From Clostridium sp. (GTDB taxonomy: Bacteria > Bacillota > Clostridia > Clostridiales > Clostridiaceae): 52,896 bases of DNA. The stretch lies in NCBI GenBank assembly GCA_022785265.1, contig JALFQD010000403.1:1-52896 (forward strand), read 5' to 3'. The notes under the pieces were generated by a model. It searched no databases. It saw only the letters and a program-made list of their open reading frames with translations, and was not told the DNA's origin. Of this stretch, positions 14,521 to 50,581 are shown one piece after another. Each line of letters starts with the position of its first letter. The stretch's first letter is position 1. Position numbers and translations under genes: made by a program.

Positions 14521-16053
14521 TTAAAAAGCTGACTCTTCTTCAAGAGTAATTTTTATATCATCAATAGGAACAAGTTCATAAGCATATGTAGTACAAAACA
14601 TAGGAATAATTCTACAAGTTCCTAAATCTGCTTTACACCATAAAATAACTCCTTTATACCTACCACGTCTATTTTTATAAATAGACATTTTAATAGTTGG
14701 AGTATCAAATAATTTTGTGTTTAGTATTTTTTCTAATGAAATTAAATCATCATCTTGGACATTTAAAAGAATTGATCCATAATCTACTTTATCGGCAATG
14801 GATTTTGCTCCACGCAAAAGATTCTGATCAGGGGTTTTAGAATCAACATAATCACCATTTAACTGTGTTGCTGACATAATAAAAACACCATATTGATTAC
14901 AGATATCCTTTAATTTATTAGATAGCATAAAAAGTATATTATCTTCACGAAGTTTTACTCCACCACTACGACGAGTAATTTCTTCAAGAATTTTCATACT
15001 TGTATGAATATAGTCATGAAATATGTATTTTACATCATGATCGCGAATGCCTTTTTTGATTTCATTTTCGACATCTTGTAATGAAAAATCAGGTAATTCA
15101 CGAATATACAATGGACTATCTTTAAGAATTTTCGCAGCTTCTATTACTCGTTCTTTTTCATCTCCTTGATATTCATTATAAATAATATGTTCTTCATTCA
15201 CATTAGAAAGAAAAGCAAGCATCATTGTTTGAATTTCATTTTTATCTTGCTCTGTAGTTATATACAATACTGGTTCTTGGATTCCATTTTTGATCCAACT
15301 TCCAAAAGTATCATCATATATTTTATTACAAGCAATATAACACGAATCCGCAATCATAGAACGAGTTTTACCTACGCCGGTAGCCGCGGAGCGCAAATAA
15401 AACTTTTTAAGTCTTGCTCCACGAGTAACTGTATTAATTAATGGCCCATACAGAGGACTTCCTGCTATTGGATGTTGCTCTAAATCATCAAGTAATTCAA
15501 AAATTCCATCACCCGCTTGAACTGCAACTCCTTCAACGTCATTTACATACTCATATTTAATTTGTTCTATGCGGTCATCAATTAGTTGTGCGATATGCTC
15601 TAATGAAGAATTATCAAGATTATCTTCTTGTAATTGTTTTTTTTCAGTATCTAAAATATTATCAGGGTCATAAATAAAAGAAACATCAATACCATATCTG
15701 TCATAAGCACGAAGTAGAGACATTTTTTTTAAACGACCATAATAATAATCAAATGATAAAGGTTTCGCATTTTCAGAAACTTTTAATAACCACTCTTCGC
15801 CTTTATTGACTTTAAATGTAGCTTCATATTTAGGTCGAGAAGAAAGAAAATCACTAATATTTTCTAAAGTAATTTTCTAAGCTCCTAATTCATGAATTTT
15901 ATATATTGCTCCAAAAACAATTCTATGAAATTCATCGACAAAATCTTCATCAGTTATTGTATATCTATCAGTAAAATCCAAAAGCTAAGGAGTATTATAT
16001 ACACACCCTATAACTTGCGTGATCGCTGTTGGATCTACATATTTACTCGGCAT
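14521..16053 (-). CDS. dnaB: Replicative DnaB-like hexameric helicase. Track ORF 14521..15723 is extended upstream across TAG codons at 15877-15879 and 15985-15987 to an ATG at 16051-16053.
   Basis: C-terminal RecA-like domain with Walker A (SAATGVGKT). The upstream 110 codons are open, have only TAG interruptions and translate to a DnaB N-terminal-like domain (MPSKYVDPTAITQVIGCVYNTPQLLDF…). Strong AGGAGGAG ribosome-binding site before the 16053 start. TAA lies immediately upstream in frame. Confidence 0.8.
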
Positions 16054-16612
16054 TTAACTCCTCCTATTCATCTAAAAATGTAAAAACTGATCTTTTTCGA
16101 GGCTCTTTTTTAGGAATAGGAATTTTTATTTCCTTTAATTTAGGAACGTAATCAATAACATTTTTATCTTTATTGGATTGTTGAATCATCCAAAGATTAT
16201 AATAATAATTGTAAGCGTCTTTATAAATAAAAGGTATAATACCAATTCCACCATTAGCTTTATTTTTATTATTTCCTTTAACTTCATAAAAATAAACTAA
16301 GGCTTTTAACATTCCAGAATATGTATATTGATATTCTCTAATATAATCATTCATTTGCTTGCGGACGCGAGCATTAATATATGATTCTCCTAATAAATTT
16401 TTTACATATTCTTCAAATTTTTCTTTATCTAAATCTTCTTTTGTTTTTACTTTTTCGGGCGGATTATGAACTTGTAAAGGAGTGTCTTCATTTTCAGCCT
16501 ATTTAGCACATTCAGGGTGCGCATATCTTCGAGATTTTATTTGGACATAAGGGAACTTATCTCTATCAAAAGTCTGCTGACAATAAATACATTTAACTTT
16601 ATGTATATAAAT
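16043..16612 (-). CDS. Hypothetical protein with an N-terminal CxxC…HxxC zinc-finger. ORF 16064..16354 is extended both ways across TAG at 16064-16066 and 16499-16501. The start codon is unclear.
   Basis: The in-frame upstream region encodes …KVKCIYCQQTFDRDKFPYVQIKSRRYAHPECAK-TAG-AENEDTPLQVHNPPEK…MNDYIREY. There is no ribosome-binding site before the track's ATG. An AAGGAG site lies at about 16615-16620, but the only in-frame codons after it are ATA/ATT. The C-terminus runs past TAG to TAA at 16043. Confidence 0.5.
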
Positions 16613-16639
16613 TACTCCTTTCTATTATTTTATAAAAAT

Positions 16640-16668
16640 ATTATACAATATTTTTAAATAAAAGTCAA
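16640..16668 (-). promoter_or_regulatory. Promoter TTGACT-17-TATAAT for the 16043..16612 gene
   Basis: Its -35 element overlaps the U-tract/stem of terminator 16655..16694. Confidence 0.5.
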
Positions 16669-16694
16669 ACCGGAGCGACTTTTATCACTCCGGT
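16655..16694 (-). terminator. Rho-independent terminator after the Sak4-like gene
   Basis: Hairpin CCGGAG/CTCCGG followed by a U-tract that also contains the TTGACT -35 element. Confidence 0.6.
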
Positions 16695-16711
16695 TATAAA
16701 TTATACTTTAT

Positions 16712-17707
16712 TTACTTATTTTCCATTTGAGGAAGAAGATCATCTTTAATTTCACCAACAATTAAAGATATAAATTCTGCCTGTTCGGGAGTTGCATCAG
16801 AAATTTTCTTACCTTTACCCAAATATTTATCAATAATTTGAGTTATACGAGGACCAAAGAATCCAGGGTTCTTATTCATCATATCTCCAGCAAGGTTTTG
16901 GAATTCAGCCATAAGTGCTTCATAATCATAAGTAGGAGCTTCAGGAGCAATGACCATCTTTTCATCAGTGACAAATTTACCACCATTATCAGCAGCTTCC
17001 TTATCAATAGCCTCATGAATGGCATTAATAAGACTATCATAATTCATAGGAATTTCGCTCTCAATATACTTAAAACGACCGCCACAGTCAATAAGATCAT
17101 TACCAGAACGAAGAGTTAAAACAGACATTTGACCTGCTGCTTTTTGATGCGCATATCCATAAACATCAGCCATACCGGTGATAATAGTGCGAGTGGATTG
17201 AGAAAGATTTGGTCTTACTGCCACAACCTCAGTACCATCAGGACGAGTTACAGTTTGTTCTTTTTCATGTCCGATAAAGAAAACGGCATATCCAAGACGA
17301 GTTAAACCTCTAAAAACTTCATTAAATTCATCTTTGAATTTAGACCAGCCCTTACCATAACCAAGGTCTCCAAGAGATTCAATTTGATTTTGATTACAAA
17401 TATATTTCTCACAATACTTAGCAGCTTCATCAATAGTATCTACAATAATAGCGTTATACATTGCCTTTACTTCTGGACGCTTCAAATCACGATAGACTTG
17501 TTTCATTTCTGCCCAAGAAGTAATATCTGCGGCCATAACGCCAGGAAGGCAGTTATAACCTTGCTCAAAAGCTAAAAGCAAAGAATTCGGCATTTGAGTA
17601 GCCAAAGTAGTCTTGCCTGTCTTAGGCTTGCCATAAATAAAAGTAATATAACCAGAAAGATCTTTACTTACCTTATGAGGTTGAATTTTAGTTAAATCAA
17701 TAGCCAT
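16712..17707 (-). CDS. Sak4-like RecA-fold ATPase (phage recombination/annealing ATPase)
   Basis: Walker A GKPKTGKTT near the N-terminus, a Walker B-like IIVDTID and ~330 aa length. AAGGAGA ribosome-binding site. Followed by a terminator hairpin. Confidence 0.5.
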   Translation of the reverse strand: MAIDLTKIQPHKVSKDLSGYITFIYGKPKTGKTTLATQMPNSLLLAFEQGYNCLPGVMAADITSWAEMKQVYRDLKRPEVKAMYNAIIVDTIDEAAKYCEKYICNQNQIESLGDLGYGKGWSKFKDEFNEVFRGLTRLGYAVFFIGHEKEQTVTRPDGTEVVAVRPNLSQSTRTIITGMADVYGYAHQKAAGQMSVLTLRSGNDLIDCGGRFKYIESEIPMNYDSLINAIHEAIDKEAADNGGKFVTDEKMVIAPEAPTYDYEALMAEFQNLAGDMMNKNPGFFGPRITQIIDKYLGKGKKISDATPEQAEFISLIVGEIKDDLLPQMENK

Positions 17708-17789
17708 TATATTATTTCTCCTTATTTGTTTTAATTATTATCTCTTTAAGTATTTCTTCTAAATTTAGTATATTACAAAAATCATCATA

Positions 17790-50291: not shown

Positions 50292-50327
50292 CTAAATCTT
50301 TAACAAGATTCCTTTCTAAAAATTTAA

Positions 50328-50404
50328 TGGAGGCAAGGGTGAGATTCGAACTCACGAATACCGGCTTTGCAGACCGTCCTCTTAAACCACTTGAGTACCT
50401 TGCC
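50328..50404 (-). tRNA. tRNA-Cys (anticodon GCA)
   Basis: Reverse complement is GGCAAGGTACTCAAGTGGTTTAAGAGGACGGTCTGCAAAGCCGGTATTCGTGAGTTCGAATCTCACCCTTGCCTCCA. It has a 7-bp acceptor stem, a T-arm GTGAG/TTCGAAT/CTCAC, an anticodon loop CUGCAAA, the U73 discriminator typical of tRNA-Cys, and an encoded CCA. Confidence 0.8.
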
Positions 50405-50505
50405 ATATGAGTAAATTAATTACTCATAAATATAAATTTCACCAGTTTGAATGTTTTCCTCTTGGATAAGAGGAATTATTTTTTATAGGTATTTCTCAAC
50501 CTTAC
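50405..50505 (-). ncRNA. Structured ~100-nt leader RNA co-transcribed immediately 5' of tRNA-Cys (two hairpins). Candidate Y-RNA/vault-RNA-like partner of the TROVE protein.
   Basis: One hairpin ATGAGTAA/TTACTCAT sits 2 nt from the tRNA 5' end. A second hairpin TTCCTCTT/AAGAGGAA sits upstream. There is no ORF. It lies between cassette promoter 50512..50540 and the tRNA. Confidence 0.3.
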
Positions 50506-50511
50506 ATATAT

Positions 50512-50540
50512 ATTATATTATAATTTTTATAAAAAATCAA
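50512..50540 (-). promoter_or_regulatory. Cassette promoter TTGATT-17-TATAAT driving the leader RNA, tRNA-Cys and TROVE/vWA gene
   Basis: Conserved motif located after terminator 50541..50577. Confidence 0.6.
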
Positions 50541-50577
50541 ATAAAAATTTTAATGGGTTAAATTTTATTTAACCCAT
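50541..50577 (-). terminator. Rho-independent terminator after the methyltransferase gene
   Basis: Hairpin ATGGGTTAA/TTAACCCAT followed by a U-tract. Confidence 0.6.
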
Positions 50578-50581
50578 TATT

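What the first reader, a model, noticed from the sequence alone, without database searches (positions are those of the whole stretch)
16000..50581. Reusable terminator-promoter cassette: hairpin, then a U-tract that is also the -35 TTGATT element, then 17 nt, then TATAAT, repeated at least nine times
A ~40-nt motif (minus strand TTTATTGATTTTTTTATAAAAATATAATATAATATTTATA, with small variants) recurs at 19233, 22825, 35852, 36932, 38692, 42078, 46056, 48677 and 50512. In most copies it is placed immediately after an intrinsic terminator whose U-tract overlaps the -35 element. Two copies (35852 and 36932) are nearly identical over about 60 nt. This defines a discrete promoter class, probably recognised by host sigma-A as early or middle promoters. 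It partitions the minus strand into insulated transcription units, and the MVP unit and the tRNA-TROVE unit each get their own copy. A few other promoters (21407, 21659, 28564, 16640) use TTGACA/TTGACT boxes without the extended motif, which may indicate a different temporal class.
Basis: seen in the sequence. Interest (0 to 1): 0.55.

Follow-up and report, generated by a model that had tools for sequence, protein, structure and literature searches.

The report
Phage early promoters fused to terminators
A repeated ~45-base signal in this uncultured rumen/gut phage is a family of strong bacterial-type gene start signals, often fused to the stop signal of the preceding gene block; this is a tidy but ordinary way for a large phage to organise its early genes.

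Summary
Exactly nine copies of TTGATTTT-N15-TATAATAT lie on the minus strand at the stated coordinates, against zero expected by chance. All are intergenic and point the same way as the genes, and the start codon follows about 30-39 nt after the -10. The same element recurs hundreds of times in related 100-200 kb uncultured phage contigs, with unrelated flanks.

It is best read as a sigma-70/sigma-A-type promoter class (-35 TTGATT, 17-nt spacer, perfect -10) with a conserved T-run/A-run spacer and an AT-rich start region. Six of the nine copies follow a strong hairpin. In three, the stem abuts or includes the -35, so the promoter's T-run serves as the terminator U-tract. Relatives show this in about a third of copies, with 89 distinct hairpins. 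T-runs are longer where the stem abuts.

The phage recodes TAG as a sense codon. The 34 genes in these promoters' units contain no in-frame TAG, whereas 9 of the 32 other genes do. That fits an early, host-code expression class.

No experiment supports any of this. The closest known systems are the T4-type PeSL promoter-terminator cassettes and the Kayvirus early promoters. This is a new member of a known kind and of modest interest.

The parts
19223..19261 (-). Strict promoter P19233 (TTGATT-17-TATAAT + ATTTATATAA). It drives the 18817-19194 winged-HTH gene, then 17855-18802 and the AAA_24 gene. No convincing upstream terminator.
22815..22853 (-). Strict promoter P22825. It drives the DNA ligase gene 21677-22795.
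22855..22879 (-). Terminator hairpin after gyrA (dG -14.0). The stem ends 1 nt before the -35 of P22825, so the U-tract is TTGATTTTTTT.
35842..35880 (-). Strict promoter P35852. It drives 35626-35817 through the SPFH gene 32668-34053. No hairpin upstream.
36922..36960 (-). Strict promoter P36932. It drives the metallophosphatase gene 36180-36899 and 35890-36168.
36958..36984 (-). Terminator hairpin (dG -16.9). Its 3' arm contains the TTG of the P36932 -35, and A+T7 follows the stem.
38682..38720 (-). Strict promoter P38692. It drives 38435-38662 and the NADAR gene 37991-38434.
38719..38754 (-). Terminator hairpin (16 bp, dG -20.9). Its 3' arm includes the first TT of the P38692 -35. Orthologues show two compensatory double changes.
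42068..42106 (-). Strict promoter P42078. It drives 41685-42044, the RNA-ligase-like gene 40303-41682, the Macro-like gene and others. No hairpin upstream.
46046..46084 (-). Strict promoter P46056. It drives an 11-gene unit (45819-46025 to 42112-42387) that includes cREC_REC, RlaP-like and metallophosphatase genes.
46095..46121 (-). Terminator hairpin after the MVP gene (dG -18.3) with its own T-tract. It ends 10 nt upstream of the P46056 -35.
48667..48705 (-). Strict promoter P48677. It drives the major-vault-protein-like gene 46140-48638.
48716..48751 (-). Terminator hairpin after the DUF2828/DUF7788 gene (16 bp, dG -19.6) with its own T-tract. It ends 10 nt upstream of the P48677 -35. In four relatives a 364-bp ORF sits between this terminator and the promoter.
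50502..50540 (-). Strict promoter P50512. It drives tRNA-Cys (50328-50404) and the DUF2828/DUF7788/VWA gene 48756-50291.
50551..50579 (-). Hairpin after the methyltransferase gene (dG -16.4). It looks bidirectional and ends 10 nt upstream of the P50512 -35.
16630..16668 (-). Related promoter P16640 (TTGACT-17-TATAAT + ATTTTTATAA). It lies upstream of 16043-16354 and dnaB.
16668..16695 (-). Terminator hairpin (12 bp, dG -20.3). Its 3' arm includes the TT of the P16640 -35.
28554..28592 (-). Related promoter P28564 (TTGACT-17-TGTTATAAT). It drives the DUF5662-gyrB-RNaseH-gyrA unit.
21397..21435 (-). Related promoter P21407 (TTGACA-17-TATAAT + ATTTACATAA).
21649..21687 (-). Related promoter P21659 (TTGACA-17-TAAAAT). 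This is the weakest match to the shared downstream half.
32510..32548 (-). It lies upstream of 32047-32484 and phoH. In relative L041 a 2.9-kb module is inserted exactly at its 5' edge.
6290..6328 (-). Weak promoter-like site upstream of the Pol III alpha gene (TTGATA-17-TATTAT).

Best explanation
The repeats are a lineage-specific class of sigma-70/sigma-A-type promoters in a large (about 130-200 kb), uncultured, TAG-recoded phage from rumen or gut. They are most likely read by the unmodified host RNA polymerase holoenzyme early in infection.

**Anatomy of each element**
- -35 TTGATT
- an invariant 17-nt spacer made of a T-run then an A-run (T5-7 [AT] A5-6)
- a perfect -10 TATAAT
- an AT-rich discriminator and start region (ATWTATAKAA)
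- a short A-rich leader with an AAGAAAGG-type ribosome-binding site
- a start codon about 30-39 nt after the -10

**Fusion with terminators**
Because the 5' half of the promoter is already a T-run, a GC-rich inverted repeat placed directly upstream turns TTGATTTTTTT into the U-tract of an intrinsic terminator. Transcription from the preceding unit then stops inside the next promoter's -35/spacer, and the next unit starts afresh. This gives compact, insulated transcription units.

**What the units carry**
In this window they carry accessory, counter-defence-type and RNA-repair-type genes: RNA ligase-like, RlaP-like, cREC_REC, an AAA_33 kinase-like gene, metallophosphatases, NADAR, Macro-like, MVP, and DUF2828/VWA with tRNA-Cys. 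They also carry DNA ligase.

**Shown versus inferred**
- Shown: sequence anatomy, statistics, strand and position rules, conservation across relatives, hairpin placement, and the absence of TAG codons.
- Inferred: sigma-A recognition, start sites, termination efficiency and early timing.
For: **In the window**
- 9 exact matches to TTGATTTT-N15-TATAATAT, all on the minus strand, 0 expected.
- Leave-one-out PWM scores of 28-51 bits against a random maximum of 5.8.
- 15:0 strand bias for TTGAnn-17-TATAAT.
- All nine copies are intergenic, with a Shine-Dalgarno sequence and ATG at a fixed distance.

**In relatives**
- The exact 31-mer occurs in 47 stretches of IMG/VR contigs. Eleven of those stretches have no blastn match to the window at E<=1e-10.
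- 338 unique TTGATT-17-TATAAT copies occur in 170 loci. Information content falls to zero just outside the element.
- In 51 of 55 multi-site loci, all sites lie on one strand.

**Hairpins**
- Hairpins are present in 34% of copies, against 2-3% in controls.
- There are 89 distinct hairpins, and the 3' end of the stem peaks at -2..+2 relative to the -35.
- T-runs are longer when a hairpin abuts: 6.1 versus 5.2 (p=4.5e-7). After collapsing to 280 flank clusters the difference is 5.9 versus 5.2 (p=4.6e-4).
- Hairpin orthologues show compensatory changes.
- Window hairpins have dG of -14 to -21 kcal/mol.

**Early class**
- TAG is a sense codon here. Pfam domains run uninterrupted across in-frame TAGs in the lysin, RecJ, DnaB, helicase and methyltransferase genes.
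- In the window, 34 strict-unit genes (6622 codons) hold 0 TAG. Nine of the 32 other genes hold 28 TAGs (Fisher p=7.6e-4).
- In relatives, the first genes after strict promoters have 1.13 TAG per 1000 codons, against 3.37 elsewhere (p=3.7e-8).
- This fits the published hypothesis that code-15 phages keep early genes in the standard code (PMC9523058).

**Precedent**
- The Kayvirus of Staphylococcus has 58 early sigma-70-type promoters and 42 terminators (PMC7698491).
Against: - There are no transcript data, and the host is unknown. MAG labels (Mollicutes, Clostridium, Ruminococcus, Eubacterium, Actinomycetes) are unreliable for phage contigs.
- Only 52.9 kb of a genome of up to about 190 kb was seen, so a phage-encoded sigma factor or RNA polymerase cannot be excluded.
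- The strongly conserved spacer is not needed for sigma contacts. It could mean an extra protein binds there.
- The -35 deviates from TTGACA at positions 5-6, and there is no TG extended -10.
- Three of the nine copies have no terminator, so insulation is incomplete.
- TAG-free status is not exclusive to these units. Pol III alpha and gyrA/gyrB are also TAG-free.
- Instances in relatives are not phylogenetically independent.
Confidence: 0.75

Rival explanations
1. The motif is a promoter, but for a phage-encoded sigma factor or phage RNA polymerase, not for host sigma-A. Alternatively it needs a phage activator. The conserved spacer and start region would then be the specificity determinants.
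For: - Conservation extends well beyond the two hexamers: T-run, A-run and ATWTATAKAA.
- The Pol III alpha gene is most similar to that of SPbeta-group phages. From my own knowledge, those phages carry their own RNA polymerase, YonO.
- Most of the genome is unseen.
Against: - The -35 TTG, the exact 17-nt spacing and the perfect TATAAT are the sigma-70 signature.
- No polymerase or sigma gene was found among the window proteins scanned.
- Genes behind the motif are TAG-free and of the accessory/counter-defence type expected to be expressed first, before any phage factor exists.
Confidence: 0.12
2. The near-palindromic spacer (TTTTTATAAAAA / T7A6) is an operator. The class is defined by a phage repressor or shut-off factor that binds between -35 and -10 and switches the whole early regulon off together. 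One candidate is the winged-HTH protein 18817-19194, which itself lies behind P19233.
For: - The spacer is conserved more than sigma contacts require, and it is a perfect 12-nt palindrome in most copies.
- A TrmB/MarR-like wHTH gene is the first gene of a strict unit.
Against: - AT-only palindromes arise easily in 32% GC DNA.
- The middle of the spacer is the least conserved part of the element.
- T-run length tracks hairpin adjacency, which points to a terminator role instead.
- There is no evidence of binding. This rival adds to the best explanation and does not replace it.
Confidence: 0.15
3. The cassettes are primarily recombination modules like T4-type PeSLs. Repeated promoter-terminator sequences would serve as homologous crossover points that shuffle accessory genes between phages, with promoter activity secondary.
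For: - Composite promoter + stem-loop architecture flanks accessory genes.
- Two indel junctions between close relatives fall exactly at the 5' edge of a -35: window 48707 and 32549. One of them inserts a complete promoter-genes-terminator module.
- PeSL precedent (PMC2839356, PMC4122927).
Against: - Only 2 of about 9 indel classes coincide with a cassette. That is roughly what gene-boundary indels would give by chance, with about 8 promoters among about 45 gene boundaries.
- Of the other seven indel classes, at least four insert homing-endonuclease-like ORFs (HNH-like, GIY-YIG-like or Cys-rich types) between genes.
- The 364-bp insert in L001 is not flanked by two promoter copies.
Confidence: 0.15
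4. The repeat is not functional. It would be low-complexity AT-rich sequence, or a recently duplicated or mobile (MITE-like) segment.
For: - The genome is 68% A+T, and the generic sigma-70 scan finds about as many sites as in shuffles (109 versus 97, and 85 versus 72).
Against: - The specific motif has 0 expected occurrences against 9 observed, with a 15:0 strand bias.
- It is always intergenic, at a fixed distance from start codons.
- It is conserved in divergent relatives with unrelated flanks.
- It has no terminal inverted repeats or target duplications.
Confidence: 0.02

Closest known systems
PeSL (promoter-early stem-loop) cassettes of T4-type phages (Arbiol et al. 2010, PMC2839356; Comeau et al. 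2014, PMC4122927)
   Same: - Small composite elements that combine a strong sigma-70-like early promoter with a stem-loop acting as terminator or attenuator.
- Repeated many times, intergenic, ending in a Shine-Dalgarno sequence and start codon, and flanking accessory genes.
- Subclasses exist in which the stem-loop overlaps the -35.
   Different: - Different phage lineage and host type, and no sequence relationship.
- In PeSLs the stem-loop most often lies between -35 and -10 or over the -10. Here it lies upstream and ends at or within the -35, with the promoter's own T-run as the U-tract.
- The PeSL hallmark, recombination between cassettes causing indels, is not supported here (2 of about 9 junctions).
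Early sigma-70-type promoters and intrinsic terminators of large lytic Firmicute phages, e.g. the Staphylococcus Kayvirus vB_SauM-515A1 (PMC7698491)
   Same: - Dozens of near-consensus host-type promoters (-35 TTGACW, 17-nt spacer, -10 TATANT) plus dozens of GC-stem/poly-T terminators.
- Together they cut a large genome into many host-dependent transcription units.
   Different: - Kayvirus promoters carry a TRTGN extended -10 and a TTGACW -35.
- Here there is no TG element, the -35 is TTGATT, and the spacer and start region are strongly conserved.
- The Kayvirus data are experimental (RNA-seq). These are predictions.
Extended-consensus early promoters of coliphages T4 and T5 (own knowledge; T4 review PMC2988021 was listed but not read)
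   Same: Phage early promoters that share homology well beyond the two hexamers (AT-rich upstream, spacer and downstream regions), are read by unmodified host holoenzyme, and outcompete host promoters.
   Different: The consensus sequence differs. The hosts are Gram-negative. No systematic fusion with terminators is described for T5.
Code-15 (TAG-recoded) phages, with the hypothesis that recoding delays late and lytic genes (PMC9523058 and the work cited there)
   Same: - TAG is read as sense in the lysin, RecJ, DnaB and other genes.
- A block of genes stays in the standard code.
   Different: That work concerns the genetic code, not promoters.

Membership tests
sigma-70/sigma-A-dependent promoter | -35 hexamer resembling TTGACA, with the TTG conserved | tested here: met
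   TTGATT in 9 of 9 copies (4 of 6 matches to consensus). TTGACA or TTGACT in the four related sites.
sigma-70/sigma-A-dependent promoter | -10 hexamer TATAAT at 17 +/- 1 bp from the -35 | tested here: met
   Perfect TATAAT with exactly 17 bp spacing in 9 of 9 copies.
sigma-70/sigma-A-dependent promoter | Located upstream of genes and co-oriented with them, at a leader distance compatible with translation signals | tested here: met
   All copies are intergenic on the coding strand. The ATG lies 30-39 nt after the -10 in 8 of 9; the ninth precedes a tRNA. In relatives the distance peaks at 29-34 nt.
sigma-70/sigma-A-dependent promoter | Holoenzyme binding and initiation at a defined start site | not testable with these tools
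   No transcript or biochemical data. The host is unknown.
Intrinsic (Rho-independent) terminator | GC-containing stem-loop immediately followed by a U-tract, downstream of a stop codon | tested here: met
   Met for 6 of 9 strict copies and for P16640: stems of 11-16 bp with 3-6 GC pairs and dG of -14 to -21, followed by T-rich tails. No hairpin at 19233, 35852 or 42078.
Intrinsic (Rho-independent) terminator | Structure maintained by selection (compensatory changes) | tested here: inconclusive
   Two compensatory double changes in orthologues of the 38719-38754 hairpin. Other hairpins vary too little.
Intrinsic (Rho-independent) terminator | Transcript release in vivo or in vitro | not testable with these tools
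   No data.
PeSL cassettes (T4-type phages) | Composite of an early sigma-70-like promoter and an adjacent or overlapping stem-loop, repeated in the genome | tested here: met
   The definition comes from PMC2839356.
PeSL cassettes (T4-type phages) | Cassettes are the crossover points of indels and replacements between close relatives | tested here: not met
   2 of about 9 indel classes coincide with a cassette. Of the other seven, at least four are homing-endonuclease-like gene insertions.
PeSL cassettes (T4-type phages) | Occurrence in T4-like myoviruses and sequence relatedness to known PeSLs | not tested
   The gene content seen (SPbeta-like Pol III alpha, gyrase, MVP) does not look T4-like. 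No structural genes lie in the window.

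The most novel reading that the evidence does not exclude
In this TAG-recoded phage lineage, the strict TTGATT promoter class marks the standard-code early regulon, while TAG-containing genes lack such promoters. Examples are the lysin with 9 TAGs, RecJ, the GIY-YIG gene and DnaB. 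Several of them sit directly behind terminators with no sigma-70 promoter of their own. Timing would then be set by two coupled layers: promoter class with terminator read-through, and genetic code. If so, a simple sequence motif could sort early from late genes across hundreds of uncultured code-15 phage genomes. That would make the 'recoding delays lytic genes' hypothesis directly testable. The bifunctional -35/U-tract would be a selected compaction device and not a coincidence.
Probability: 0.35. Interest if true: 0.5.

Novelty: new member of a known kind. Interest (0 to 1): 0.3.

Why it matters
- It gives a clean, computable definition of a putative early regulon for a widespread but uncultured group of large, TAG-recoded rumen/gut phages. 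It also shows which accessory genes (RNA repair, ADP-ribose-related, vault-protein-like, VWA + tRNA) would be expressed first.
- The promoter-terminator fusion is a compact natural insulator design that could be reused in low-GC Gram-positive synthetic biology.
- The link to TAG-free genes offers a handle for testing the idea that stop-codon recoding times lytic gene expression.
- None of this overturns current understanding. Consensus early promoters and composite promoter-terminator cassettes are established phage features.

Tried and rejected
- **Megablast of 20 kb against GenBank phages:** no match. Only protein-level relatives were found: SPbeta-type Pol III alpha at 39%, and MVP in huge uncultured phages at 39-41%.
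- **Exact-protein look-up of the MVP gene to find the source contig:** not on record. The rest of the genome could therefore not be inspected for sigma or polymerase genes.
- **Rfam scan of the window:** only the tRNA. The motif is not a known RNA family.
- **PeSL-like recombination role:** I mapped indel junctions between the window and relatives at 87-98% identity. Only 2 of about 9 fall at cassettes, and of the other seven at least four are homing-endonuclease-like insertions. Rejected as the main function.
- **Host assignment from MAG labels:** the labels conflict (Mollicutes, Clostridium, Ruminococcus, Eubacterium, Actinomycetes) and are not trusted.
- **Generic sigma-70 scan counts:** not above shuffles. 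Only the extended motif is significant.
- **Literature search for overlapping terminator/-35 designs:** nothing relevant found.
- **A candidate late-promoter motif upstream of TAG-rich genes:** none convincing.
- **The intragenic site 8570-8585:** it matches the -10 half but has no -35, and is treated as chance.

Full report
**What the window is**

The 52.9-kb window is 28-41% G+C. Essentially every gene lies on the minus strand.

Pfam identifies the following:
- Replication and DNA metabolism: Pol III alpha, DnaB, RecJ, an SF1 helicase, DNA ligase, GyrA/GyrB, RNase H, PhoH and an anaerobic ribonucleotide reductase fragment.
- A lysozyme + amidase lysin.
- A block of RNA-repair or counter-defence-type genes: RNA-ligase-like, RlaP-like, cREC_REC, an AAA_33 kinase-like gene, three metallophosphatases, NADAR and a Macro-like gene.
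- A major-vault-protein-like gene.
- A DUF2828/DUF7788/VWA gene preceded by tRNA-Cys.

There is no nucleotide match to GenBank phages. At protein level, Pol III alpha is 39% identical to that of SPbeta-group phages. The MVP gene is 39-41% identical to genes of huge uncultured phages. The window is therefore a piece of a large, uncultured, low-GC phage.

**Check of the observation**

- All nine stated coordinates are the 3' ends of perfect TATAAT hexamers on the minus strand, each 17 nt downstream of TTGATT.
- TTGATTTT-N15-TATAATAT matches exactly nine times, all on the minus strand. The expectation from 100 dinucleotide-preserving shuffles is 0.
- Leave-one-out PWM scores are 27.8-50.8 bits. 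The maximum in Markov-random sequence was 5.8.
- With selection on the hexamers alone (TTGAnn-17-TATAAT), there are 15 minus-strand sites and no plus-strand sites. Twelve are intergenic and carry the extended motif. The three intragenic ones do not.
- The downstream half, TATAATATWTATAKAA, occurs 12 times at <=1 mismatch, all on the minus strand, against 0.2 expected. These include three of the four TTGACA/TTGACT sites. The two 'classes' therefore share the -10 and start region and differ in the -35 and T-run.
- Copies 35852 and 36932 are near-identical for about 40 nt, not 60.

**Terminators**

Strong hairpins (dG -14 to -21 kcal/mol) precede six of the nine copies and also P16640.
- In P22825, P36932, P38692 and P16640 the stem ends 1 nt before the -35 or includes its first 2-3 bases. 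The only available U-tract is then the TTGATTTTTTT (or TTGACTTTT) of the promoter itself.
- In P46056 and P48677 the hairpin has its own T-tract and ends 10 nt upstream.
- In P50512 the hairpin also ends 10 nt upstream, but an A-then-T stretch follows the stem and the hairpin looks bidirectional.
- P19233, P35852 and P42078 have no convincing terminator.

**Relatives**

The exact 31-mer TTGATTTTTTTATAAAAATATWWTATAATAT occurs in 47 stretches of IMG/VR contigs, mostly 100-200 kb long.
- Some stretches are 90-98% identical to the window and some 65-77%. Eleven have no blastn match at all.
- It also occurs in rumen or pig MAG contigs with conflicting taxonomic labels.

In 170 loci (1.47 Mb) there are 338 unique TTGATT-17-TATAAT copies.
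- In 51 of 55 loci with three or more copies, all copies are on one strand.
- Information content is high from the -35 to about +10 and falls to zero in both flanks. The element itself is conserved, not its neighbourhood.
- Start codons peak 29-34 nt after the -10.

**Is the overlap a design or a coincidence?**

- 115 of the 338 copies (34%) have a GC-containing hairpin of at least 6 bp ending near the -35. Shuffled and downstream controls give 2% and 3%.
- There are 89 distinct hairpin sequences. The 3' end of the stem peaks sharply at -2..+2 relative to the first T of TTGATT.
- The uninterrupted T-run after TTGA is longer when a hairpin abuts (mean 6.1, mode 7) than when there is no hairpin (5.2) or when the hairpin sits upstream with its own T-tract (5.3). 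The p-values are 4.5e-7 and 1.3e-3.
- After collapsing to 280 flank clusters, the effect holds: 5.9 versus 5.2, p=4.6e-4.
- Orthologues of the 38719-38754 hairpin show two compensatory double substitutions.

I infer that the T-run belongs to the promoter consensus everywhere and is under extra constraint where it also serves as the U-tract. Because the promoter already supplies a T-run, any GC-rich inverted repeat arising just upstream creates a terminator at little cost.

**Temporal class**

While mapping intergenic gaps I found that TAG is a sense codon in this phage.
- No credible gene ends in TAG, and several code-11 'gaps' are coding.
- Pfam domains run uninterrupted across in-frame TAGs in the lysin (9 TAGs), RecJ (6), DnaB (2), the SF1 helicase (1) and a methyltransferase (1). 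The GIY-YIG protein carries 4 in-frame TAGs as well, but there the domain continuity was not shown.
- The 34 genes in the nine strict-promoter units (6622 codons) contain no TAG. Nine of the 32 other genes contain 28 (Fisher p=7.6e-4).
- In relatives, first genes after strict promoters carry 1.13 TAG per 1000 codons, against 3.37 for other ORFs. The share of genes with a TAG is 11% versus 27% (p=3.7e-8). ORF calls there are crude, and not all loci need be recoded.
- This matches the current hypothesis that code-15 phages keep early genes in the host code and recode late or lytic genes (PMC9523058).
- Several TAG-rich genes (lysin, GIY-YIG, 9406-9867) sit directly behind terminators with no sigma-70-like promoter. 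They may depend on read-through or on an unrecognised promoter type. I could not define one.

**Rivals**

- A phage-encoded sigma factor or polymerase cannot be excluded, because about two thirds of the genome is unseen and the exact-protein look-up failed. The hexamers and spacing are nevertheless canonical, and no polymerase or sigma gene was found among the window proteins scanned.
- The conserved, palindromic T/A spacer could be an operator. A winged-HTH gene is the first gene behind P19233. This remains speculative, and it would add to the promoter reading without replacing it.
- A PeSL-like recombination role was tested. Among about 9 indel classes between the window and close relatives, only two junctions fall at the 5' edge of a -35. 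One is a 364-bp ORF between terminator and promoter at 48707. The other is a complete 2.9-kb promoter-genes-terminator module at 32549 in L041.
- Of the other seven indel classes, at least four are insertions of homing-endonuclease-like genes, several with TAG codons. Cassettes are therefore not evidently preferred crossover points.

**Comparison with what is known**

Functionally, the closest system is the PeSL cassette of T4-type phages. PeSLs are repeated composites of a strong sigma-70-like early promoter and a terminator or attenuator stem-loop, and they include a subclass that overlaps the -35 (PMC2839356, PMC4122927).

The second close system is the many consensus early promoters plus terminators of large Firmicute phages such as Kayvirus (PMC7698491).

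The present elements differ in several ways:
- the lineage and the consensus (TTGATT, no TG element, conserved T-run/A-run spacer and start region);
- the preferred geometry, with the stem ending at the -35 and the promoter T-run serving as the U-tract;
- the lack of evidence for cassette-mediated shuffling.

**Verdict**

- This is a new member of a known kind, a well-defined putative early promoter regulon with built-in insulators in an uncultured TAG-recoded phage lineage.
- It is useful for annotation and for testing the recoding-timing hypothesis, but it would not surprise a specialist.

Noticed in passing
window 7207-8400, 10824-12572, 14521-16053, 16043-16354, 19269-19937, 19990-21003, 29129-30430, 50582-52063: TAG is read as a sense codon (code-15-like). 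No credible gene ends in TAG. Pfam domains continue across in-frame TAGs in the lysozyme+amidase lysin (9 TAGs), RecJ (6), DnaB (2), the SF1 helicase (1) and an N6 methyltransferase (1); the GIY-YIG protein also carries 4 in-frame TAGs. No suppressor tRNA lies in the window.
   Followed up: yes
window 37188-38004: An 817-bp segment is present in the window and in L037 and L039, but precisely absent (4-nt junction overlap) from L002, L003, L006, L021, L025 and L043; in L041 the gap lies at about the same place (37163/38005). It encodes, on the plus strand (the only plus-strand gene seen), a Cys-rich endonuclease-like ORF with one in-frame TAG, followed by its own terminator at 37978-38005. Homologous ORFs form other indels in relatives. 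It is probably a mobile homing-endonuclease gene.
   Followed up: partly
window 28628-28657 (+) and 28692-28728: The only 12/12 consensus promoter on the plus strand (TTGACA-18-TATAAT + ATATTTAAG). It lies back-to-back with P28564 and points into a bidirectional hairpin about 35 nt downstream. This could give a short antisense or small RNA of about 65-70 nt.
   Followed up: no
window 50292-50540: Between P50512 and the DUF2828/DUF7788/VWA gene lie a small hairpin (50456-50475) and a tRNA-Cys(GCA) (50328-50404). A tRNA co-transcribed with a VWA-domain (DUF2828/DUF7788) protein recalls bacterial Ro60/Y-RNA loci. Pfam does not call TROVE here.
   Followed up: no
window 30431-30492, 21004-21062, 9868-9930: TAG-rich genes (the lysin, the GIY-YIG protein, 9406-9867) start a few bases after strong terminators, with no recognisable sigma-70 promoter. 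Their expression may need terminator read-through (antitermination) or an unrecognised late promoter.
   Followed up: partly
L041 2337-5283 (inserted at window 32549): A 2.9-kb accessory module found only in this relative. It has its own TGn-TATAAT promoter, a TAG-containing ORF, a very Cys-rich repetitive peptide (CxxxC-type repeats), a small ORF, a radical-SAM/SPASM-like maturase and a terminator that abuts the next -35. It looks like a RiPP-like cassette.
   Followed up: no
window 32000-48700: There is a dense cluster of RNA-repair and ADP-ribose-related genes: RNA ligase-like, RlaP-like nucleotidyltransferase, cREC_REC, an AAA_33 kinase-like gene, three metallophosphatases, NADAR and Macro-like. 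An SPFH protein and a major-vault-protein homologue sit with them. All lie behind strict promoters, which suggests an early counter-defence arsenal.
   Followed up: partly
window 26-943 and 980-1648: The anaerobic ribonucleotide reductase (NrdD) match covers only profile positions 115-360 of 562 in ORF 26-943, and the gene appears split across adjacent ORFs. The cause could be interruption or the window edge. Its presence suggests an anaerobic host.
   Followed up: no
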